Shown here: piece after piece, positions 10,616 through 51,032 of the stretch
Layout: each line of letters begins with the position of its first letter
Position numbering within the stretch: the first letter of the stretch is position 1
Source: a virus
Taxonomy: Duplodnaviria; Caudoviricetes
Length of the DNA: 55,042 nt
Virus record (IMG/VR): IMGVR_UViG_3300017991_000133
Span: 1-55,042 of that record
Strand: one strand, 5' to 3'
Notes under the pieces: generated by a model
Told to the model about the DNA's origin: nothing
The model's database searches: none
The model's input: only the letters and a program-made list of their open reading frames with translations
Position numbers and translations under genes: made by a program

Positions 10616-10834
10616 CTATCCTTGCCGGGTCTGTTTCTGTGCTGCTGGGGCAGTCCCGGCATGGGCCTCGATGAAGATGCGGATGAGGCGCCTCATCGAT
10701 GGCAGCGGGGTGTGGCGCCCGGTGAACCAGCGATGCAGGGTCGTGTAGCTGATCTCGAGCTCCCGGCAGATAGCCTCGTTGCTTAGCTTTTCGCGCTCTT
10801 TGATCTCGCGCAATTTCTCTAGCTCGTATACCAT
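10616..10834 (-). CDS. Cro/XRE-family HTH regulator
   Basis: 'LSNEAICRELEISYTTLHRWFTGRHTP'; first gene after the leftward promoter; GGAGG SD. Confidence 0.85.
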   Translation of the reverse strand: MVYELEKLREIKEREKLSNEAICRELEISYTTLHRWFTGRHTPLPSMRRLIRIFIEAHAGTAPAAQKQTRQG

Positions 10835-10854
10835 ATTGTCCTCCTGTGCTTTAA

Positions 10855-10883
10855 ATAATATAGGTCGCCATGGCGCTTGTCAA
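10855..10883 (-). promoter_or_regulatory. Leftward sigma70 promoter
   Basis: TTGACA-17 nt-TATTAT on the - strand; spacer contains palindrome CGCCATGGCG. Confidence 0.85.
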
Positions 10884-11116
10884 GTGTTTTATAAAAGTTT
10901 TTGGACTCCAGGGCCTGGCGGGATCCTGGCGCCGGCGATTCCGGGTGCATTGCTGGCCGGTCGCGCCGGCCGCGGGTGGGTCCCGGGACGCTTCTTCCCT
11001 GGGGGGGCTCCTGGCCAAAAGAGGACCGGCCTTTTTGGAAAGATGGGAAAAAAGGCCAAAAGTGCCCAAATACTGTGCAAAATCCCAACTTTTTTTCAAG
11101 TTTTTTTGAAAAAGAC

Positions 11117-11145
11117 TTGACATTCGCCATGGCAAACGCTATATT
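11117..11145 (+). promoter_or_regulatory. Rightward sigma70 promoter driving the ribozyme-punctuated operon
   Basis: TTGACA-17 nt-TATATT with upstream A/T tracts (UP-like); spacer contains CGCCATGGCA. Confidence 0.88.
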
Positions 11146-11227
11146 ATTAATAGGATGAAAAAGAAAAAGGGCGACAGAGAGACGGTCAGCGGATGTCAAG
11201 GCCAGTTAGGTCAAGTCCTTTTCCTTG

Positions 11228-11239
11228 GCTCTTTGAAAA
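11228..11239 (+). promoter_or_regulatory. boxA-like antitermination site
   Basis: GCTCTTTGAAAA, ~80 nt downstream of the promoter, resembles rrn/lambdoid boxA. Confidence 0.6.
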
Positions 11240-11253
11240 AAGAAAGCTGAATA

Positions 11254-11378
11254 GGCTGCCTGGGGTGACTGCCCCAGCGCTCCTCGGCCGGCGAACCGGG
11301 CGGTAGCTGACGCGAGTCAGCGAGAATCGGATGGCTGCCCGAGGGTGCCAGCGCTGCGGCGGGTGTTCCCGGGGGCTC
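11254..11378 (+). ncRNA. Structured leader RNA of unknown function (branched rod)
   Basis: Nested pairings CAGCGCT/AGCGCTG and CCTCGG/CCGAGG; hairpins CCGG-CGAA-CCGG and GCTGAC-GCGA-GTCAGC. Confidence 0.5.
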
Positions 11379-11409
11379 GAAAAGCAGAATCAAAAACCTC
11401 CCTCCCAAA

Positions 11410-11479
11410 TTCGAAAGCGGGGAGGGCTTCTTCCCGCTCCCTCCGGTGCTAGCCGGCCGGGGGCTGAAGAGATAGGCTT
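11410..11479 (+). ncRNA. Type II hammerhead ribozyme 1 (predicted cut after C11439)
   Basis: GAAA 11413-16; stem III GCGGGGAG/CTTCCCGC; CUC triplet; stem I CCTCCGG/CCGGGGG; CUGAAGA 11464-70; stem II only 2 bp; loop AGCC pairs with tail GGCT. Confidence 0.8.
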
Positions 11480-11501
11480 AATTTTTTTTGGGAGGTTTTC
11501 T

Positions 11502-11744
11502 GTGAAATACACAATCGAAAAACTGGAGCTTGTGGATCCCGAGCGGAACCACTGCAAATTTTACGAGCTCGAGTATGACGCGTTCGATAAGAGCGCTGTC
11601 GTGGTCACCCGCCGCTGGGGCCGCATCGGCACCACCGGCCAGGTCCGAAAGGATACGTTCCCTACCAGCGTCGAGGGCTATGCCTTCTTCAACGAAATCC
11701 TTTACTCGAAGCTGCGCAAGGGCTACCGCACGGTAGATTGCTGA
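11502..11744 (+). CDS. Stand-alone WGR-domain protein
   Basis: GTG start after GGGAGG; 'NHCKFYEL...VTRRWGRIGTTGQ...KLRKGY'. Confidence 0.9.
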   Translation: MKYTIEKLELVDPERNHCKFYELEYDAFDKSAVVVTRRWGRIGTTGQVRKDTFPTSVEGYAFFNEILYSKLRKGYRTVDC

Positions 11745-11746
11745 AC

Positions 11747-11846
11747 GCCGAAACCGGGGCATCAGGGCCCGGGCATGTGGGCTTTGTCTGCATGCCGGTC
11801 CTCCCGGTCCCTCGGGTTGACATCCCGGGGCTGACGAGGCTGTCAG
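11747..11846 (+). ncRNA. Type II hammerhead ribozyme 2 (cut after C11809), extended stem III
   Basis: GCC-GAAA; stem III CCGGGG/TCCCGG with a long internal hairpin; GUC; stem I CCTCGGG/CCCGGGG; CUGACGA; GGC; loop TGACA pairs with tail TGTCA. Confidence 0.92.
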
Positions 11847-11871
11847 ATTAAATCTTTTGGGAGGTTTTCAA

Positions 11872-12162
11872 ATGTCTAAACTTTCATCTTATGCAATGGG
11901 CGGCGGCCGCAAGGCTAAGCCGGTTACGGATCCGTCCAAGTTCTCGCGTCATTTCAATCTGGACGATGTCGAGGGCATCATCGGGTTGATGGATGCCAAC
12001 GTTCTGGTGGCTGCGGCTGCCGGTCAGATCGACCTCAACGAGGTCGCTTCCTGGGAGTTGGCCAATCGCGGGATGAACCGCATGGGCGAATGGGTAGGCT
12101 TCGACGAGGCCAAGAGGCGCCATGAGGCGCGCGCCGTCACGCACGGCTGGCCTAAGAGGTAG
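11872..12162 (+). CDS. Small hypothetical early protein
   Basis: ATG after U-tract and GGGAGG; 'ELANRGMNRMGEWVGFDEAK'. Confidence 0.85.
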   Translation: MSKLSSYAMGGGRKAKPVTDPSKFSRHFNLDDVEGIIGLMDANVLVAAAAGQIDLNEVASWELANRGMNRMGEWVGFDEAKRRHEARAVTHGWPKR

Positions 12163-12230
12163 CCGAAACGGAGGGCTCCCCGATCCTCCGTCCCTCCGGG
12201 GTGACTTCCCGGAGGCTGATGAGGCAAGTC
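12162..12230 (+). ncRNA. Type II hammerhead ribozyme 3 (cut after C12192)
   Basis: GCC-GAAA; stem III CGGAGGG/TCCTCCG; GUC; stem I CCTCCGGG/CCCGGAGG; CUGAUGA; GGC; loop GACTT pairs with tail AAGTC. Confidence 0.95.
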
Positions 12231-12253
12231 GAAAAATTTTGGGAGGTTCAAAA

Positions 12254-12571
12254 ATGTTTGAGAAAGACTGTGATTATGAGGTCATGAAAGACGGCGCCAG
12301 CCTGGTCGCTTCGGTGGCCATGGGATCCGGCATCGGCACTTCCTGGAGGCAGAAATCCTTTAAGCTTCCTAAGGGCGCGCTTATCCACTACGAGGGCCGC
12401 GGGAAGGCCATTTTTTCCGGCAGTGTCGAGATGGAATTCTTTTCCATCGTGACCTCGGGATTTGGCGCAGACGCCGGTTCGGACATGAGCGGAGTTGTTT
12501 ACTTCAAAGGCTATTTCGAGCCTAATTCCTGGGGCTGCGTGCCTGCTGGGTATCTCCGCAAGGTCGACTAA
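12254..12571 (+). CDS. Small hypothetical early protein
   Basis: ATG after GGGAGG; MFEKDCDYEV...GYLRKVD. Confidence 0.85.
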   Translation: MFEKDCDYEVMKDGASLVASVAMGSGIGTSWRQKSFKLPKGALIHYEGRGKAIFSGSVEMEFFSIVTSGFGADAGSDMSGVVYFKGYFEPNSWGCVPAGYLRKVD

Positions 12572-12635
12572 TCGAAACGGGGGCTTGGGGCCCTCGTCGC
12601 CGGGAGGTGACCGTCCCGGCCTGAAGAGATAGGTC
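12571..12635 (+). ncRNA. Type II hammerhead ribozyme 4 (cut after C12598)
   Basis: ATC-GAAA; stem III CGGGGGC/GCCCTCG; GUC; stem I GCCGGGA/TCCCGGC; CUGAAGA; GAT; loop GACC pairs with tail GGTC. Confidence 0.95.
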
Positions 12636-12661
12636 GAAATTAATTTGGGAGGTTTTCTAAA

Positions 12662-13057
12662 ATGGCTAAGAAAAAAGAACAGTGGGCAATCGATTATGAG
12701 GTCCGGGTCGCGGCCATCCGGCGGGCGATTAATGTGGACGGCCACAAGTTCTATCTTGACACCTATTTGGGCCGCAAGCTGGTCCTGGCCATTGACGCGG
12801 ATGGCAGCACTGCTGTTTCCGGCCTTGGCACCTGGAGCCAGCACTCCTGGGCGATCTGCTCCACTCAGGTTTATCCCTGGGCAGAGGAGATTGGGATCCC
12901 TCAGGACAAGCACTTCAAGTTCGAAGTGTTCTCAACTCACCGCAGCGAGCAGGCCGCCGAGAAGCGGGCGCTCATGGAGCTCGATGTCAAGTCTTTTGTC
13001 GATTACCGGATCGTCAACCAGCCCAATGGGCTTTCTGTCCTATGGGTTGCTAGATGA
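12662..13057 (+). CDS. Hypothetical early protein
   Basis: ATG after GGGAGG; 131 aa. Confidence 0.85.
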   Translation: MAKKKEQWAIDYEVRVAAIRRAINVDGHKFYLDTYLGRKLVLAIDADGSTAVSGLGTWSQHSWAICSTQVYPWAEEIGIPQDKHFKFEVFSTHRSEQAAEKRALMELDVKSFVDYRIVNQPNGLSVLWVAR

Positions 13058-13059
13058 CA

Positions 13060-13123
13060 GCCGAAACGGGGCGCCGCCCCGTCCTCCCGGGAGTGACCGT
13101 CCGGGAGCTGAAGAGGCAGGTCA
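13060..13123 (+). ncRNA. Type II hammerhead ribozyme 5 (cut after C13083)
   Basis: GCC-GAAA; stem III CGGGGC/GCCCCG; GUC; stem I CTCCCGGG/TCCGGGAG; CUGAAGA; GGC; loop TGACC pairs with tail GGTCA. Confidence 0.95.
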
Positions 13124-13149
13124 AATTATTTTCTTTGGGAGGTGTTTTT

Positions 13150-13410
13150 ATGAGTAAGGAAAAACTCGTTTCTATTCCAGCCGGGTTTAAGTGCCCGGCC
13201 GTTGCTAACTTGCCGGCGGATCCGGCGCTCGAGAGTATGGAGTGCTCGGTGTTCGGTCAGACAAACTGGTTCTGCCCCTACGCTGCTTTTCCGTGCTTAG
13301 AGGAGCGCCGGCTGAGCGCTGACTGTCCGTATGCTCCTGCTGAAATCTGGCGCCACTTCCGGAATTTCCGCGAGCGCGTAGAGCTCGAGGCGCTGGAGGG
13401 AAAGGGATGA
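13150..13410 (+). CDS. Small Cys-rich hypothetical early protein
   Basis: ATG after GGGAGG; five Cys. Confidence 0.8.
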   Translation: MSKEKLVSIPAGFKCPAVANLPADPALESMECSVFGQTNWFCPYAAFPCLEERRLSADCPYAPAEIWRHFRNFRERVELEALEGKG

Positions 13411-13631
13411 CAAAAATCAAGGAATATTTAAACACTCCTGTTTTTGTTTTTCTCTATGAAGATGCTATTCCGGAGGTCATTCTCTGGATGGTGTTTTACA
13501 ATGGCATCGTCGATGCCGTGGAGCTGCTGGCGGCATGGCTCGGGGATGCGTCCGAGACTTATCTTCGCGGCTTAACGGTTACCGTCGTCGACGCCGATGA
13601 GCTGCCGGGCGATCCCTTTGAGTGGATGTGA
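13407..13631 (+). CDS. Small acidic hypothetical protein
   Basis: ATGA-coupled to the previous gene. Confidence 0.75.
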   Translation: MTKIKEYLNTPVFVFLYEDAIPEVILWMVFYNGIVDAVELLAAWLGDASETYLRGLTVTVVDADELPGDPFEWM

Positions 13632-13696
13632 TCGAAACGGGCCCTTGCGGGCTCGTCGCTCCGGGTTGATCACCGGGGCCTGATGAGATTGATCAA
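13631..13696 (+). ncRNA. Type II hammerhead ribozyme 6 (cut after C13657)
   Basis: ATC-GAAA; stem III CGGGCCC/GGGCTCG; GUC; stem I GCTCCGG/CCGGGGC; CUGAUGA; GAT; loop TTGATCA pairs with tail TGATCAA. Confidence 0.95.
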
Positions 13697-13718
13697 ATTT
13701 TTTATGGGAGGTATCGTT

Positions 13719-13955
13719 ATGGACCGTTTAAGTGGACAGAAAAATTTCCACTACGGGCTGGACTTCGTACTCAGTCACCGCGCCGAAGATGTGGCAGAGG
13801 CCATCGATATGCTGGCCAGCCGCAATCGCTTTGAGAAGGTCAAGCGGGTCGTTATTCGGCCTGAGGAGAAGCCCGCTCTGCGACGGCAGCTCGAGGAGCG
13901 CATGAAGGTGCGCCGCCGCAAGGCTGAGCGCCGCCGCGGGGAGTACCGGAAATGA
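13719..13955 (+). CDS. Small basic hypothetical protein
   Basis: ATG after GGGAGG. Confidence 0.8.
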   Translation: MDRLSGQKNFHYGLDFVLSHRAEDVAEAIDMLASRNRFEKVKRVVIRPEEKPALRRQLEERMKVRRRKAERRRGEYRK

Positions 13956-14182
13956 CCTTACAGGCACTTTTGGTAATAGGGCTGCTGCTCTGGTGCTTTG
14001 CGCTGACCGTGCTGCTTATGCGCGAGATGCGCCGCTGCGACCGGATGCGGCACAAGCTGCTTGAGATCCTCCGCGAAATGACGGCGGATTCTCACCAGCA
14101 GGATCTGTTCCCCCAGGCTTATCGTGATGCGGTTTCGCATTACTCTCTGGCCATAGAAGGAGTTGTCAATGAAAGTGATTAG
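13952..14182 (+). CDS. Small membrane-anchored hypothetical protein
   Basis: N-terminal TM; ATGA coupling. Confidence 0.7.
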   Translation: MTLQALLVIGLLLWCFALTVLLMREMRRCDRMRHKLLEILREMTADSHQQDLFPQAYRDAVSHYSLAIEGVVNESD

Positions 14183-14405
14183 CGAGATTAAGCTGCCAGG
14201 TGATATCGAGGTCAAAAAGGTTCCGTCCGACCAGATCCGCGTAGAGATCACCATGGAGTGCACGGACATCTATTTCCGCGAGCTGGATGCATCGATCCAG
14301 GAGGCGGTGGGAAGGTCGTTCCAGGAGCTGCTGCAGAGCGCTGTTATGCGACAGGTGGAAAAGGTAGAGGAGAATTACCTGGAGCGGATTCGGGCGAAAT
14401 CTTAG
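14169..14405 (+). CDS. Small hypothetical protein
   Basis: ATG after AGGAG; overlaps the previous stop. Confidence 0.75.
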   Translation: MKVISEIKLPGDIEVKKVPSDQIRVEITMECTDIYFRELDASIQEAVGRSFQELLQSAVMRQVEKVEENYLERIRAKS

Positions 14406-14507
14406 CCGAATCGGGACCATTCCCCGGAGGTCCCGATGGTGCGGCGATGGCTGACCGCGCCCTGATGATCGCGAGAGCGAGTGCGCCGAGAGGTGCACGG
14501 CAGGCCA
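14405..14507 (+). ncRNA. Variant type II hammerhead ribozyme 7 (U15.1-A16.1 swap, two inserted GAGA hairpins; predicted cut after U14437)
   Basis: GCC-GAAU; stem III CGGGACC/GGTCCCG; GAU; stem I GGTGCGG/CCGCGCC; CUGAUGA; TCGC-GAGA-GCGA; GTGCGCC-GAGA-GGTGCAC; GGC; loop TGGCT pairs with tail GGCCA. Confidence 0.75.
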
Positions 14508-14529
14508 AAATTCAACGGGAGGTATCGTT

Positions 14530-14859
14530 ATGAAAATTTATTTCGGTGTTGGCTCGGGTCCCGGCCCGAGGCTGATCGAGGTCCTGGGAAGCCGGGACGG
14601 TGCGGGCAGAGAGGCTCGGCCCTATCCGCTGCGCCATTTCGTCCGGCACAGTCCGGATGGCTTTCAGTGGGGATATGCAGGGAGCGGGCCCGCGGATGCG
14701 GCGCGCTGTATTTTGATCGATTGCGTAGGAGTCGATCTGGCGGATCGTTTTTACCAGCGATTCAAGCAGGACTTCATCGCTCCTGCCGGCGACCGGCTGT
14801 ATATCACGGAGGCGGAGATCCGCGAATGGCTGGAGGATCAGGCTGGGTACTATGGATAA
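14530..14859 (+). CDS. DUF6166-like protein
   Basis: 'RHSPDGFQWGYAGSGPADAARCIL...YQRFKQDFIA' signature. Confidence 0.75.
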   Translation: MKIYFGVGSGPGPRLIEVLGSRDGAGREARPYPLRHFVRHSPDGFQWGYAGSGPADAARCILIDCVGVDLADRFYQRFKQDFIAPAGDRLYITEAEIREWLEDQAGYYG

Positions 14860-15103
14860 GTTCGAGTCGCAGGAGGTCGGGTTTCAGCTTGCTGCGGAGG
14901 CCGGCGTTCCGGTCCGCGGCATCGTCGATGGTGTAAGGTACATTTTCTTTCCTTCTGGCCATCGCAAGGAGGTCAGAGCAGGAGGCATGAAACGCTCGCC
15001 CACGGCGCCGCTCGATGCGGATACGAAAGTCGTGAGGTGCCCGGCGTGTCGCTTCACAGTATTCCGGGATGGCTGCTGCAGCTACTGTGGAGAGAAATTT
15101 TAG
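14852..15103 (+). CDS. Small zinc-ribbon protein
   Basis: C-terminal CPAC...CSYCG. Confidence 0.7.
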   Translation: MDKFESQEVGFQLAAEAGVPVRGIVDGVRYIFFPSGHRKEVRAGGMKRSPTAPLDADTKVVRCPACRFTVFRDGCCSYCGEKF

Positions 15104-15119
15104 CCTCCCAAATCTTTTA

Positions 15120-15156
15120 GGCCCAGGGGCCGGTTGGTTCCTGGGCCTTTTTTTTT
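15120..15156 (+). terminator. Intrinsic terminator ending the + strand operon
   Basis: GGCCCAGG/CCTGGGCC hairpin followed by T9. Confidence 0.85.
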
Positions 15157-15364
15157 GGCCAAAAATATCGGCGCACAGGCGGCTTCTGGTCGCCTCGTTT
15201 CGTAAAAAGCCGTATTTCAGGATGAAAGCGCAGGATAAATAGTGCAAAAAGCCCTAATATTGCACAAGCTATTGAAATTGTGCTGTTTAGGCCGGAATAA
15301 AAACGCTCTGAGAGGCGCTACGGCGGGCGTTCTCTTGTCGATGCTTATATCCGGTCGCTCAAAA

Positions 15365-33663: not shown

Positions 33664-34425
33664 CTACGCGATGACTCGTTTTTGCACCACATAAATGTAG
33701 TCGACGTCGATGCAGTGTGCGTCAGCCTCTGCGTTCCGGATCCCGAAGCCCACGTTGAGCTCCTCGTCCTGTGGGATGTTAGTGGTCATGCTGCCGGTTG
33801 CGATGCAGTAGCCGCCTTCCTGGGCGTCGGTGAAAACGAACCAGCGCACGGTTCCTGCGCCGTCCCAGTGGAAGCCTACGCGGTACCAGGTGTTGTCAGC
33901 CATGCTGGCGCAAAACACGTCGGTCAGGGCGCCGTCGTAGCAGGCGAAATGGATGTCATCGCCGCCCATGTCAACGTCGCTCCAGAATACCACGTAGTCT
34001 GTTGGCTGGCCCCAAAAAGAATCTCCGACTATGAGCCCAAACCACCAATCGGCGGCATCGGGATCGTCCACTCTGACGCGGGCCTCCGCGTAGAGCGGGT
34101 AGCAGTCTACCAGCTGCCAGCACTCGCATCCGTACACCAGCTCGTCGGAGTCGTTGTCGGCTCCGGCGTTGCACACTTGCAGCACGCCGTTGACCTCATC
34201 GATGCAGGCTTCGGTTGCGCTGCCGCTGCCCTCCTCGGTTGTGGTGATGGTCCAGCAGTCTGAGTCGAAGCAGCAGAAGTCCATCTCCAGGCGGTGGGCG
34301 AATGGTATCGTGTAGTTCTTGAACCAGCCCCACTTATCGTGGTTGATGTGCCAGTTCAAAAACTCGATGTCGCGGATGAAAAGCTCGGGGCTGTGGTCGT
34401 CTACGTATGCGTGTGGGAATTCCAT
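33664..34425 (-). CDS. Probable capsid decoration protein (beta-sandwich, lectin-like), Cys-rich and acidic
   Basis: Follows the capsid gene; 'TWYRVGFHWDG', 'IDVDYIYV'. Confidence 0.55.
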   Translation of the reverse strand: MEFPHAYVDDHSPELFIRDIEFLNWHINHDKWGWFKNYTIPFAHRLEMDFCCFDSDCWTITTTEEGSGSATEACIDEVNGVLQVCNAGADNDSDELVYGCECWQLVDCYPLYAEARVRVDDPDAADWWFGLIVGDSFWGQPTDYVVFWSDVDMGGDDIHFACYDGALTDVFCASMADNTWYRVGFHWDGAGTVRWFVFTDAQEGGYCIATGSMTTNIPQDEELNVGFGIRNAEADAHCIDVDYIYVVQKRVIA

Positions 34426-48774: not shown

Positions 48775-49740
48775 TTATTTCATGTATCCTTGCCTGGGGC
48801 GTATGCGGGTGTAGTCGAAGAGCCAGGGGTTGTGCTCAGCCAGGCTCTCTAGTCCCCCGAGCTGTTTTATGGCCTCGAGGGCCTTGTCTATGTGGACGTC
48901 GTATTTCAGGGCGAGGATGACGGCGCCGGCTTGCCACTCGACCATGAATCTGTGCCATGCTTCTGGCCATGTGGAGCGGAGGATGCGGTATCCGGAGTTT
49001 GTGTACTGGCTGCCGCCTCCGCAGAAGACGCAGCCCACGGTGATGGCGCCGCGGCTACGGGCCGGGTGCTCCTCGAGGGCGTTGCGCTGGATGTAGCGCG
49101 CTATGTCGGGGTCGGTCCATCCGGTGAGCGGATTAGCGATCCACATGCGGTCCCTTTGCTGGTAGAAAAGGGCTCCGTCCTTAAGGTCCCGGAGGCCACG
49201 GAGCGAGTCGTCAGCTAGGCCGCGCTGTCCTGTAAGCTGCACGGTGCAGCCGAGGTTGCGGGTGAGCCGGCGGGCCGGGTCGATCTTCATGGTCCGGCAG
49301 CATTCGGAGACGTTTAGGGCGAAGCCGCGGTCGGGGTGGGCCTGCATCCAGCGGCGGGCGGCCATCTTCCCCAGCATGGGCCAGCCCTTGCGCTGCCATT
49401 GCTCCTTGGGCGTAATGCGGGCCCGGGCAGTACGGAGCTCTAGGCCGTAGCGCTCTGCGGTCTGCTCCACAAAGAGCCGGCTTTCCGGGTACTCCATTTG
49501 GGTGTCTACCCACAAGAGCGTCGGGCGGATGCCGGCCTTGGCGGCAAGATCAAGCAGGACCAGGCTGTCGGATCCTCCGGAGAATGCCAGGCATATGGAG
49601 TCGCCGTGCTCGCTGCGCACGCGATCCAGCATGGTCGTTGCGGTGTGGATGGTGCCGGTGCTTTCAGGCTGCTGCGCCGTTTTTTTTGCTGGGATCGCGT
49701 ATTCGCGTTCCTCGAGGATCCGCTCCGCGAGGCTTGTCAC
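48775..49740 (-). CDS. PAPS-reductase-family (PP-loop, Fe-S) protein
   Basis: 'AFSGGSDS', 'DTQMEYPE', 'CC..MK', 'GCVFC'. Confidence 0.88.
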   Translation of the reverse strand: MTSLAERILEEREYAIPAKKTAQQPESTGTIHTATTMLDRVRSEHGDSICLAFSGGSDSLVLLDLAAKAGIRPTLLWVDTQMEYPESRLFVEQTAERYGLELRTARARITPKEQWQRKGWPMLGKMAARRWMQAHPDRGFALNVSECCRTMKIDPARRLTRNLGCTVQLTGQRGLADDSLRGLRDLKDGALFYQQRDRMWIANPLTGWTDPDIARYIQRNALEEHPARSRGAITVGCVFCGGGSQYTNSGYRILRSTWPEAWHRFMVEWQAGAVILALKYDVHIDKALEAIKQLGGLESLAEHNPWLFDYTRIRPRQGYMK

Positions 49741-51032
49741 TCGGCTGCCTCCTGGGCCTCGAGGTCCACCTTTTCACAGGTAGCCCGGATCTCTTTTTCC
49801 GAAGGGCCGCCCTGGGCCTCATACCGGCGGATCACCACGTCCACATACACGGGGTCAAGCTCTATGAGCCGGGCCTTTCGGCCCTCGCGGTCCGCTGCTA
49901 TGAGGGTGGAGCCGCTGCCTGCAAACGGGTCGAGCACGATGTGCCCGGCCTTGCTGGAGTTGCGGAGGGCGCGCTGGATAATGCCCAGCGGCTTTTGGTT
50001 CGGATGAAGCATTGACTGAGTTCCGCGGCGCGCCATCTCCCATACATCGGCCTCGTATCTATGGTCAAGAAAGTAGTGGCGGCCGGCATTCCAACCATAG
50101 AGTATAGGCTGCCCTTTTTTGGCGCGGTTTTTTCCGTTAATTATCAGCTCATGCTTGTGCCGATAGTCGCCCCAGCCCCTGGAGGTGTTGTTTTTTACCC
50201 AAACGATGGCAGTCGAGAACACCATGCCGGCCGCGCGGATGGCGTAGGAGAACACGGGGTAGCTCGGGTAACCGCTGCAGATATAGAAAACGCCGCCGCG
50301 CTTCAGGTTTTCCTTTATACGCGTGCAGAATACCACTGAAAATTCGACAAATTGCTCCTCAGTCATGTTGTCTCCGAGAATCGGGCCAAACTTGGTCCCC
50401 TGGTAGTTTATGTTGTATGGCGGGTCCGTAAAAACGATATCCGCGCGCTCATCGCCCATGAGGGCGGCGTAGCTGGCCGGGTTCGTGGCATCGGCACAGA
50501 GGAGTTTATGCGGTCCAAGAGCATAGAGGTCGCCCATCTGGGAGATCGGTTCGGCCTCAGCCTCTGGCGCCTGATCCTCTTCGCCGGCGTCTATCTTTGG
50601 GCCGAATTGATGGAGCAATTCGTCCACAGATAGAGTTCTTCCAAGATCGAACCGGTATAGAGCTGGGTCGATTTTGTCTTTGGAATCGTATACCATCTCT
50701 GCCAGGGCCTGATCGTCATACTCGCCTGCGCGGTCGTTGTCCGAGAGGTTGTACTCGAGCTTCTCTGCCTCGCTTTTCGGATGCACGATGCTGATGTCGA
50801 CCTCGTCAAAGCCCAGCTCCCTCAGGGCCTCGAGGCGCATGTTTCCTCCCAGCGCTACGTAGTGCCGGTTGTCCTTGTAGCAGACCAGCGGCTTGTAGAC
50901 GCCGAGGTGTGTGATCTGCTTTTTCAGGCGCTCGAAGTCCTTGATTTTGATGTTCCTGGGGTTTTTATCCCAGGGCTTGACGGCCGATAAGGGAACCGTT
51001 TTCATCTCGAGTGGTCCGGTTTTTTTCGCCAT
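49737..51032 (-). CDS. ParB-N domain fused to an N6-adenine/N4-cytosine DNA methyltransferase
   Basis: 'KPWDKNPR', 'GGNMRL'; 'TDPPY', 'HPNQKP', 'DPFAGSGST'. Confidence 0.92.
   Translation of the reverse strand: MAKKTGPLEMKTVPLSAVKPWDKNPRNIKIKDFERLKKQITHLGVYKPLVCYKDNRHYVALGGNMRLEALRELGFDEVDISIVHPKSEAEKLEYNLSDNDRAGEYDDQALAEMVYDSKDKIDPALYRFDLGRTLSVDELLHQFGPKIDAGEEDQAPEAEAEPISQMGDLYALGPHKLLCADATNPASYAALMGDERADIVFTDPPYNINYQGTKFGPILGDNMTEEQFVEFSVVFCTRIKENLKRGGVFYICSGYPSYPVFSYAIRAAGMVFSTAIVWVKNNTSRGWGDYRHKHELIINGKNRAKKGQPILYGWNAGRHYFLDHRYEADVWEMARRGTQSMLHPNQKPLGIIQRALRNSSKAGHIVLDPFAGSGSTLIAADREGRKARLIELDPVYVDVVIRRYEAQGGPSEKEIRATCEKVDLEAQEAAE

What the first reader, a model, noticed from the sequence alone, without database searches (positions are those of the whole stretch)
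14405..14507. Unusual hammerhead variant: A15.1-U16.1 flipped to U-A, with two GNRA hairpins inserted beside the core
Seen in sequence: copy 7 has GAAU instead of GAAA and a GAU cleavage triplet, a compensatory swap of the normally invariant pair. Between CUGAUGA and the stem II 3' strand (GGC) sit 30 nt forming two adjacent hairpins, TCGC-GAGA-GCGA and GTGCGCC-GAGA-GGTGCAC. Stems I, II, III and the pseudoknot are all retained. Inference: this is a structural subtype that standard models may miss; it could be slower, ligand- or protein-regulated, or a repurposed non-cleaving element.
Basis: partly seen in the sequence, partly recalled or inferred. Interest (0 to 1): 0.82.

Follow-up and report, generated by a model that had tools for sequence, protein, structure and literature searches.

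The report
Hammerhead ribozyme copy with interrupted core
This is the seventh and oddest of seven self-cleaving hammerhead RNAs that sit between small genes of a phage operon; it keeps the whole hammerhead fold but has a flipped core base pair and two extra hairpins at a core position where no long insert has been reported.

Summary
Window 14405-14507 (+) folds as a type II hammerhead (HHR). Stems I, II and III, the loop I/3'-tail pseudoknot, CUGAUGA and G12-A14 are all intact. It differs in three ways: U15.1-A16.1 instead of A-U, U17 instead of C17, and a 30-nt insert (14469-14498) between A9 and G10.1. Every base of the insert lies in one of two flush GAGA-capped hairpins.

It is the last of seven HHRs that punctuate a 4-kb phage operon, each 0-2 nt after a stop codon. 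A model built from five of the paralogues finds copy 7 at E 3e-4, and the match breaks exactly at the insert. Rfam's Hammerhead_II scores it 26.9 bits, below the cut-off of 37.

The U-A flip is not new. Perreault 2011 reported a natural U15.1-A16.1 HHR that cleaves slowly. The insert looks new. Eckert 2023 states that no known HHR alignment has more than 1-2 nt between CUGAnGA and its stems.

No homologue with this architecture turned up in pattern-limited scans of viral, metagenome or genome collections. The one close relative of the upstream gene lies on contigs I could not reach.

Best reading: a folded, probably attenuated self-cleaver (about 0.45). Main rival: a dead relic (about 0.33). 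Activity is untested.

The parts
11117..11145 (+). Promoter-like site of the operon that carries the seven hammerheads
   Evidence: 11 of 12 hexamer matches with a 17-nt spacer. This is a consensus match only.
11409..11481 (+). Hammerhead copy 1 (type II, A15.1-U16.1, C17)
   Evidence: RF02276 30 bits. Model R2 71.4 bits. Parse.
11746..11848 (+). Hammerhead copy 2, with a roughly 42-nt loop on stem III
   Evidence: RF02276 31 bits. Held out of model R2 and still found at 42.1 bits, E 1e-7.
12161..12234 (+). Hammerhead copy 3
   Evidence: RF02276 42 bits, over the cut-off.
12570..12638 (+). Hammerhead copy 4
   Evidence: RF02276 44.9 bits.
13059..13125 (+). Hammerhead copy 5
   Evidence: RF02276 48.5 bits.
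13630..13697 (+). Hammerhead copy 6
   Evidence: RF02276 45.6 bits.
14169..14405 (+). Upstream gene g9 (78 aa, no family). The last base of its UAG stop is the first base of stem II.
   Evidence: ORF list. No Pfam or PHROG match. One relative, P0002, at 77% identity.
14405..14407 (+). Copy 7, stem II strand 11.3-11.1 (GCC)
   Evidence: Pairs with 14499-14501 in the MFE fold, pair probability 0.71.
14408..14411 (+). Copy 7, G12 A13 A14 followed by U15.1 (GAAU instead of GAAA)
   Evidence: Sequence. Aligned to the GAAA of the paralogue model.
14412..14435 (+). Copy 7, stem III hairpin (7 bp, 10-nt loop)
   Evidence: Pair probabilities at least 0.98.
14436..14437 (+). Copy 7, A16.1 and U17. The predicted cleavage is after 14437.
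   Evidence: Position homologous to the U16.1-C17 of copies 1-6. Cleavage itself is not tested.
14438..14461 (+). Copy 7, stem I hairpin (7 bp, 10-nt loop). Loop bases 14448-14452 form the pseudoknot.
14462..14468 (+). Copy 7, core C3-A9 (CUGAUGA)
   Evidence: Sequence. This is where the paralogue-model match ends.
14469..14480 (+). Insert hairpin 1 (4 bp, GAGA loop), flush with A9
   Evidence: Pair probabilities 0.87-1.0.
14481..14498 (+). Insert hairpin 2 (7 bp including one G-U, GAGA loop), flush with hairpin 1 and with G10.1
   Evidence: Pair probabilities 0.92-1.0. It is the only 7-bp GAGA hairpin in the window.
14499..14501 (+). Copy 7, stem II strand 10.1-10.3 (GGC)
14503..14507 (+). 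Copy 7, 3' tail that pairs with loop I (pseudoknot, 5 pairs). It has the same GGC-A-tail register as copies 3 and 5.
14517..14859 (+). Shine-Dalgarno-like GGGAGG (14517-22) and downstream gene g10 (14530-14859, DUF6166)
   Evidence: Pfam PF19663, E 2.3e-21.
15119..15156 (+). Intrinsic-terminator-like end of the operon
   Evidence: 13-bp stem followed by a run of eight T.

Best explanation
Copy 7 is a diverged paralogue of the six canonical type II hammerheads that separate the cistrons of this phage operon.

Shown: it adopts the same fold, with stems I-III, the loop I/3'-tail pseudoknot and every unpaired core base intact.

Inferred, structure: the 30-nt insert between A9 and G10.1 folds into two hairpins with no unpaired linker on any side. 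These can stack end to end into one helix, so the chain enters and leaves at a nick-like point. That would turn the A9/G10.1 step into a perfect four-way junction and leave A9 free to stack on stem II.

Inferred, function: the RNA probably still cuts itself after U14437, but more slowly than its neighbours, because of the U15.1-A16.1 pair and the insert. Cleavage would separate the g7-g9 message, ending in the stem III hairpin with a 2',3'-cyclic phosphate, from the g10-g11 message. The latter would start with a 5'-OH and three hairpins (stem I and the two insert hairpins).
For: Homology:
- RF02276 scores it 26.9 bits, E 6e-5.
- A model built without copy 7 scores it 27.5 bits, E 2.9e-4 over model positions 5-55. 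The match stops exactly at A9. The next unrelated hit has E 0.63.

Same placement as the other copies:
- It starts on the last base of the stop codon.
- It has the same GGC-A-pseudoknot register, and an SD 9 nt after the pseudoknot.

Fold:
- The five-helix structure is the MFE.
- The probability of the three hammerhead stems is 0.67, the highest of the 7 copies in a secondary-structure-only calculation.
- Strand-exchange alternatives are 6-13 kcal/mol worse.

Signs of selection on structure:
- Across the 7 copies, 99.1% of 109 cells pair and 12 of 16 pairs change on both sides. 0 of 500 shuffles reach this (the alignment was fitted to the model).
- The 15.1-16.1 pair reads AU in 6 copies and UA in 1, a two-step change that keeps the pair.
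- The copy 7 pseudoknot differs from the copy 5 pseudoknot by a compensated A-U to G-C change.
- No conserved unpaired core base is lost.

The insert looks shaped rather than random:
- 30 of 30 nt lie in two flush hairpins with GNRA loops (z -5.19, 0 of 200 shuffles).
- Hairpin 2 contains a G-U pair, which argues for RNA-level rather than DNA-level symmetry.

Literature:
- A natural U15.1-A16.1 hammerhead self-cleaves at low rate, and prophage arrays cleave in vitro (PMC3088659, sections 6 and 8 read).
- One extra nucleotide between A9 and G10.1 is tolerated in CChMVd and conserved in PLE hammerheads (passages of PMC3705267 and PMC4209133).
- Type II hammerheads cleave in vivo in D. vulgaris (PMC8782182, abstract and passages).
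Against: - No cleavage data exist for this RNA.
- No homologue is available to show conservation or covariation of the flip or of the hairpins.
- Perreault 2011 found only low activity for U15.1-A16.1, and at least 10-fold losses for 15.1/16.1 mutants.
- Eckert 2023 report that known hammerhead alignments never have more than 1-2 nt between CUGAnGA and its stems. That suggests a strong structural constraint, and a 30-nt insert may well break it.
- Hairpin 2 abuts G10.1 directly. It could stack on stem II in place of the core, which would give an inactive junction conformer.
- The stacking and four-way-junction argument is my inference from the secondary structure, not a computed 3D model.
- The probability of 0.67 ignores tertiary structure.
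- An alternative stem II register, GCC with 14503-05, has probability 0.28.
Confidence: 0.45

Rival explanations
1. Dead relic. Copy 7 descends from a working hammerhead but no longer cleaves. The flipped pair together with the 30-nt insert at the core inactivate it. It persists as a structured intergenic spacer, so g7-g11 stay on one transcript.
For: - It carries two independent departures from the consensus at constrained positions.
- RF02276 scores it below the cut-off.
- Known alignments have no insert longer than 2 nt at this position (PMC10085705, section 13).
- Perreault 2011 found some phage-context variants inactive (legend of Fig. S7).
- No second example with this insert architecture was found: 0 real among 4 viral pattern hits, 1 metagenome hit and 54 genome hits.
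Against: - A decaying copy should also lose unpaired core bases and stem pairs. Here no conserved unpaired core base and none of the 22 stem and pseudoknot pairs is broken.
- The 15.1-16.1 change is compensated.
- The insert is perfectly structured and flush, which looks maintained rather than random.
Confidence: 0.33
2. Conditional ribozyme. The two GAGA hairpins are a binding platform for a phage or host protein, or for another RNA. The bound partner shifts the four-way junction between a stacked-active and a stacked-inactive conformer, so cleavage between g9 and g10 is regulated.
For: - There are two adjacent hairpins with identical GAGA loops right at the core.
- A four-way junction has two alternative stacking conformers (inference).
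- Perreault 2011 suggests in its Discussion that slow phage variants may respond to signals (passage).
Against: - No partner has been identified.
- The insert has no other copy in the window and no Rfam match.
- Alternative secondary structures are far less stable.
- There is no conservation evidence.
Confidence: 0.12
3. Different wiring. Hairpin 1 (14469-80), which directly follows A9, is the real stem II. Hairpin 2 and the GCC/GGC helix would then be an insert between 11.1 and G12.
For: Hairpin 1 is flush with A9, so the CUGAnGA-stem II block would remain uninterrupted.
Against: - It would give U10.1-A11.1 instead of the conserved G10.1-C11.1.
- It would interrupt the GAAA block instead.
- It would misplace the pseudoknot tail, whose GGC-A-tail register matches copies 3 and 5.
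Confidence: 0.05
4. Chance resemblance. The region is not related to hammerheads.
For: Rfam's cmscan with filters did not list it, even at E up to 10.
Against: - E 6e-5 and E 2.9e-4.
- Identical placement between a stop codon and an SD, as in the six clear copies.
- All stems and the pseudoknot are present.
Confidence: 0.02

Closest known systems
Type II hammerhead ribozymes with a loop I/3'-tail pseudoknot, arranged in arrays in prophage and phage operons (Rfam RF02276; Perreault et al. 2011, PMC3088659)
   Same: - Same topology: stems I and III closed, stem II open.
- Same core strands and the same pseudoknot.
- Same genomic habit: several copies flanking single small genes of a phage transcript.
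- Copies 1-6 of this operon are ordinary members. Four of the 7 copies score over the Rfam cut-off.
   Different: Copy 7 has U15.1-A16.1, U17 and a 30-nt insert between A9 and G10.1. It scores 26.9 bits, below the cut-off of 37.
Natural U15.1-A16.1 hammerhead variant tested by Perreault et al. 2011 (section 8)
   Same: The same inversion of the otherwise conserved A15.1-U16.1 pair, in a bacterial or phage-type context. That variant self-cleaves with low but detectable activity.
   Different: I could not see which sequence it is, because Fig. S6 and Dataset S1 are supplements and were closed. The text read (sections 8 and 17, plus word-search passages elsewhere) mentions no long insert next to CUGAnGA.
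Hammerheads with one extra nucleotide between A9 and G10.1: CChMVd (+) A10 (De la Pena & Flores 2001, seen only as cited in PMC3705267) and Penelope-like-element hammerheads (PMC4209133)
   Same: The same insertion point in the core. The extra residue is tolerated (moderate rate change in CChMVd) or even conserved (PLE hammerheads).
   Different: One nucleotide there, against 30 nt here forming two hairpins.
Permuted hammerheads and the 'Block C' rule of Eckert et al. 2023 (PMC10085705)
   Same: Both concern departures from the classical connectivity of the three conserved blocks.

Membership tests
Hammerhead ribozyme, type II (RF02276) | Three helices around the core, with stems I and III closed by loops and stem II open | tested here: met
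   MFE fold, parse, helix probabilities 0.71-1.0.
Hammerhead ribozyme, type II (RF02276) | Core strand C3 U4 G5 A6 N7 G8 A9 | tested here: met
   CUGAUGA at 14462-14468.
Hammerhead ribozyme, type II (RF02276) | Core strand G12 A13 A14 | tested here: met
   GAA at 14408-14410.
Hammerhead ribozyme, type II (RF02276) | A15.1-U16.1 pair closing stem III | tested here: not met
   U14411-A14436. The pair is kept but inverted (AU in 6 copies and UA in 1). A natural active exception is on record (PMC3088659, section 8).
Hammerhead ribozyme, type II (RF02276) | H17 (not G) at the cleavage site | tested here: met
   U14437. The six other copies have C.
Hammerhead ribozyme, type II (RF02276) | CUGAnGA directly followed (within 1-2 nt) by stem II, that is G10.1 next to A9 | tested here: not met
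   30 nt (14469-14498) lie between A9 and G10.1. The rule is as stated in PMC10085705, section 13. The G10.1-C11.1 pair itself is present (G14499-C14407).
Hammerhead ribozyme, type II (RF02276) | Tertiary contact between stems I and II; here the loop I/3'-tail pseudoknot | tested here: met
   14448-52 with 14503-07: 5 pairs, 4 Watson-Crick and 1 G-U. All 7 copies can form at least 4 of 5 pairs.
Hammerhead ribozyme, type II (RF02276) | Score at or above Rfam's gathering cut-off (37 bits) | tested here: not met
   26.9 bits, aligned over 14404-14481 only. Not listed.
Hammerhead ribozyme, type II (RF02276) | Site-specific self-cleavage giving 2',3'-cyclic phosphate and 5'-OH ends | not testable with these tools
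   Needs a bench assay.
Paralogue family of this operon's hammerheads (homology, not activity) | Significant match to a covariance model built from the other copies, at the same position between stop codon and SD | tested here: met
   R2 was built from copies 1, 3, 4, 5 and 6. Copy 7 scores 27.5 bits, E 2.9e-4. Held-out copy 2 scores 42.1 bits. Placement.

The most novel reading that the evidence does not exclude
Copy 7 is an active hammerhead whose CUGAnGA-stem II block is interrupted by a 30-nt, two-hairpin module. The module forms a perfect four-way junction at the A9/G10.1 step. It would be the first natural example showing that this block can be interrupted by more than 1-2 nt. It would also expose a natural site at the catalytic core where a helical module, possibly a regulatory one, can be plugged in.
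Probability: 0.4. Interest if true: 0.65.

Novelty: new variant of a known kind. Interest (0 to 1): 0.45.

Why it matters
Hammerhead searches, and the recent theory of hammerhead permutations, assume that the three conserved blocks are never interrupted.

An active copy with a 30-nt helical insert between A9 and G10.1 would relax that assumption. It would mean descriptor and covariance-model searches are blind to a class of variants. It would also point to a new attachment site for engineered switches.

If the copy is slow or dead, it is still a useful natural example of how one member of a phage ribozyme array is tuned down or retired, which changes which genes stay on one message.

The U-A flip alone adds only a second natural instance of something shown in 2011.

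Tried and rejected
Homologue hunts that gave nothing usable:

1. g10 protein in viral contigs: 10 loci at 38-55% identity. 9 of the 10 were scanned with Rfam at E up to 1 and showed 0 hammerheads. L009 was left out to stay under the size limit.
2. g9, g2, a 430-aa ORF (49737-51029, minus strand), the g9+P0002 alignment, g7 and g11 in viral contigs: no relative.
3. blastn of 11100-15200 against GenBank phages: no match. tblastn of g9 against phages and plasmids: no match.
4. Insert-architecture pattern in viral contigs: 4 hits. By eye, none shows the two hairpins or a hammerhead layout.
5. Pattern with GAAT, CTGATGA and two GAGA hairpins in metagenome contigs: 1 hit, in an AT-rich contig without the hairpins.
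6. Looser pattern (CGAAW, GNRA loops) in genome contigs: 54 hits. 0 have all 11 hairpin pairs; the best has 8 of 11 and no hammerhead stems.
7. The g9 alignment in genome contigs: none.
8. g9 has one relative, P0002 (77% identity; 5 contigs, from one source only).
9. A small survey with RF02276: 0 of 5 genomes and 1 of 151 genomes of one bacterial family. The yield was too low to look for insert-bearing variants, so I stopped.

All these patterns fix the stem lengths, so relatives with other hairpin sizes would be missed.

Expression: no RNA holder listed. Laying three DNA runs gave only short contigs. Most of the stretch had no cover, which says nothing.

Ideas rejected:
- A switch by strand exchange between stem I and hairpin 2, whose strands resemble each other. 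The forced alternatives are 6-13 kcal/mol worse.
- The insert as a repeat or mobile piece. It has no other copy in the window.
- Single 4-bp GAGA hairpins as special. There are 5 on the + strand against 3.4 +/- 1.9 in shuffles.
- A canonical hammerhead using the GAAA at 14396-99. By eye, no stem III partner exists.

MAFFT alignments A2 and A3 were structurally wrong and were not used.

Kore et al. 1998 (NHH rule) is not held, so what I say about it and about Ruffner 1990 is recall and is not used as evidence. The supplements of PMC3088659 (Fig. S6, Dataset S1) were closed. They may show which sequence carries U15.1-A16.1 and whether any aligned hammerhead has an insert here.
Full report
**What the window is.** The window is a complete 55,042-base IMG/VR virus record. 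On the + strand, a promoter-like site (11117-11145, 11 of 12 hexamer matches) and a strong terminator-like hairpin (15119-15148 plus a run of eight T) bracket a 4-kb block of eleven small genes. Only two of the first ten have a Pfam family: g1 is a WGR-domain protein and g10 is DUF6166. One more, g2, has a PHROG of unknown function. g11 was not scanned.

**The hammerhead array.** Rfam's Hammerhead_II model (RF02276) finds four copies over its 37-bit cut-off. It finds three more below it: 11746-11848 at 31 bits, 11409-11481 at 30 bits, and 14404-14481 at 26.9 bits with E 6e-5 for the record.

I parsed all seven by script. Each copy after the first starts 0-2 nt after, or on the last base of, the stop codon of the gene before it. 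Copy 1 follows an untranslated leader. Each copy ends 9-13 nt before a GGGAGG Shine-Dalgarno-like site and the next start codon. This arrangement is known: Perreault et al. 2011 describe several hammerheads flanking single genes in prophage transcripts and show cleavage of such arrays in vitro (PMC3088659, sections 6 and 17 read).

**The observation.** It is correct in every detail. In copy 7:
- GCC 14405-07 pairs with GGC 14499-501 (stem II).
- 14408-10 is G12-A14.
- U14411 pairs with A14436 (15.1-16.1).
- Stem III is 14412-18 with 14429-35.
- U14437 is position 17.
- Stem I is 14438-44 with 14455-61.
- CUGAUGA is 14462-68.
- Loop I bases 14448-52 pair with the tail 14503-07 (5 pairs, one G-U).
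- Between A9 and G10.1 lie 30 nt that fold into a 4-bp and a 7-bp hairpin, both with GAGA loops.

The unconstrained MFE structure of 14403-14510 is exactly this five-helix fold (-52.7 kcal/mol, z -3.58, 0 of 200 shuffles). It persists in a 166-nt context, where the whole stretch is only z -1.81 with 8 of 200 shuffles as good. All six other copies have A15.1-U16.1 and C17.

**Is it a hammerhead relative or chance?** I built a covariance model from copies 1, 3, 4, 5 and 6 only and searched the whole window with filters off.
- Held-out copy 2 scored 42.1 bits (E 1e-7).
- Held-out copy 7 scored 27.5 bits (E 2.9e-4).
- The best unrelated hit scored 13.4 bits (E 0.63).

The copy 7 match covers model positions 5-55, that is G12 through A9, and stops exactly where the insert begins. 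On the model-fitted alignment of the seven copies, 99.1% of 109 cells form standard pairs and 12 of 16 pairs change on both sides, with 0 of 500 shuffles reaching this. Sliding the 3' partners by one to three columns drops pairing to 36-57%. The alignment leans towards the structure, and these are paralogues, so this shows that the stems are maintained across the array. It does not show that copy 7 is active. The 15.1-16.1 column reads AU six times and UA once.

**What is known and what is not.** The flip is not new. Perreault et al. [quoted passage not shown] They attribute this to loss of an A15.1-G5 contact, and they note at least 10-fold losses for 15.1/16.1 mutants (section 8). Their Discussion already suggests that slow phage variants might respond to conditions or signals. 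My full-text search for U15.1/A16.1 found only that paper.

The insertion point has small precedents. CChMVd (+) has one extra A between A9 and G10.1 with a moderate rate effect (passage of PMC3705267). Penelope-like-element hammerheads conserve one nucleotide there (passage of PMC4209133).

A long insert has no precedent that I could find. Eckert et al. [quoted passage not shown] They build their block theory of permutations on that (PMC10085705, section 13). Two caveats apply. Such alignments come from searches that penalise long inserts. And I could not see supplementary alignments.

**Anatomy of the insert.**
- All 30 nt are used: 22 in stems and 8 in two GNRA-type loops. There is no unpaired base between A9 and hairpin 1, between the hairpins, or between hairpin 2 and G10.1.
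- Alone, the insert folds into just this structure (-17.0 kcal/mol, 84% of the ensemble, z -5.19, 0 of 200 shuffles).
- It has no other copy in the window, and the 7-bp GAGA hairpin is unique there. Single 4-bp GAGA hairpins are not unusual: 5 on the + strand against 3.4 +/- 1.9 in shuffles.
- Hairpin 2 holds a G-U pair, so the symmetry is at RNA level.

My inference is that two adjacent hairpins without a linker can stack into one continuous helix. Its 'nick' would be where the chain enters from A9 and leaves to G10.1. The A9/G10.1 step then becomes a perfect four-way junction, and A9 could still stack on stem II as in the canonical core. The other stacking conformer, with hairpin 2 on stem II, would displace the core and be inactive. 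This is reasoning from secondary structure, not a computed 3D model.

A secondary-structure-only calculation gives the three hammerhead stems a joint probability of 0.67 in copy 7. The values are 0.54 and 0.53 in copies 3 and 5, and below 0.01 in copies 1, 2, 4 and 6, where the tail competes for the weak stem II. Pseudoknots are not modelled, so this shows only that the insert does not misfold the RNA. Strand-exchange alternatives between stem I and hairpin 2 are 6-13 kcal/mol worse. The only notable alternative is GCC pairing with the second GGC at 14503-05 (p 0.28).

**Alive or dead?**

For a maintained, probably active element:
- No conserved unpaired core base is changed.
- None of the 22 pairs in the stems and the pseudoknot is broken.
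- The 15.1-16.1 change needed two substitutions and restored the pair. For a terminal A-U of an 8-bp hairpin, that would hardly matter unless the pair had a specific role.
- The pseudoknot differs from that of copy 5 by a compensated change.
- The insert is compact and flush.

Against:
- Both departures hit strongly constrained positions.
- The known U-A variant is slow.
- The literature rule suggests that long inserts here are selected against.
- I have no homologue and no RNA data.

I therefore put an attenuated self-cleaver at 0.45, a dead but folded relic at 0.33, a conditional ribozyme at 0.12, a rewired stem II (hairpin 1 as stem II) at 0.05, and chance at 0.02.

**How it would work (inferred).** Cleavage after U14437 would release the g7-g9 message ending in the stem III hairpin with a 2',3'-cyclic phosphate. 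It would leave the g10-g11 message starting with a 5'-OH, stem I and the two extra hairpins. The end chemistry is as described for type II hammerheads in PMC8782182. That such ends and hairpins change mRNA stability is general knowledge that I recall, not something tested here. A slower copy 7 would keep g7-g11 joined for longer than the other cistrons.

**Search for relatives.**
- Protein-anchored scans found no locus with the same neighbourhood.
- DNA scans were negative.
- Three architecture patterns gave only chance hits: 4 in viral contigs, 1 in metagenome contigs, and 54 in species-representative genomes, of which 0 have both hairpins. These patterns fix hairpin sizes, so only fairly close relatives could have been caught.
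- The upstream gene has one relative at 77% identity (P0002).
- 151-nt contigs identical over 14393-14543 occur in two other runs. This argues weakly against an assembly artefact, although the two may be one data set.

**Verdict.** This is a real hammerhead-derived element. By strict consensus it fails three membership features: A15.1-U16.1, A9 adjacent to stem II, and the Rfam cut-off. I therefore file it as a new variant of a known kind and not as a plain member. Half of the claimed oddity, the flip, was published in 2011. The other half, the structured 30-nt insert inside the CUGAnGA-stem II block, appears unreported. It would interest ribozyme specialists if the RNA cleaves. It is a single sequence without conservation or activity data, so I score interest at 0.45.

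Noticed in passing
window 11409-14507 (+): Six of the seven hammerheads (copies 2-7) begin 0-2 nt after, or on the last base of, the stop codon of the gene before them; copy 1 follows an untranslated leader instead. Each of the seven ends 9-13 nt before a GGGAGG site and a start codon. A terminating ribosome would therefore sit on stem II and the GAAA strand, so translation of the upstream gene might delay folding of each ribozyme.
   Followed up: partly
window 11760-11801 (+), inside copy 2: Copy 2 carries a roughly 42-nt extension in the stem III loop that forms its own long hairpin in the MFE fold. Large structured inserts therefore occur in this array at a permissive position too.
   Followed up: no
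window 14426-14465 (+): The A16.1-U17 change creates an AUG (14436-38) five nt after a GGAGG (14426-30). It opens a 9-codon frame that ends at the UGA inside CUGAUGA. The GGAGG lies partly in stem III, so this is probably coincidence. It was seen by eye only.
   Followed up: no
window 13706-13721 and 14517-14532 (+): The 16 nt from GGGAGG to the ATG are identical after copy 6 and after copy 7. This suggests that ribozyme and ribosome-site modules were duplicated or exchanged within the operon.
   Followed up: no
window 11146-11408 (+): About 260 nt lie between the promoter-like site and copy 1 with no convincing ORF and no Rfam match at E up to 10. Copy 1 would cut this leader off the first gene.
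   Followed up: no
window 15077-15163 (+): The sub-threshold Rfam hits to mmgR/suhB (28.2 bits against a cut-off of 41) and to a toxic sRNA family coincide with the operon's terminator hairpin and look like terminator mimicry.
   Followed up: partly
window 10616-10883 (-): A second promoter-like site (10883-10855, 11 of 12 matches) faces the other way and precedes a 72-aa ORF (10616-10834). The hammerhead operon thus sits in a divergent, switch-like arrangement. That protein was not analysed.
   Followed up: no
window 34296-34360 (+): There is a weak match to the paralogue hammerhead model (13.4 bits, E 0.63), with a GAA and a tail-like end but no stems aligned. It is most likely chance.
   Followed up: no
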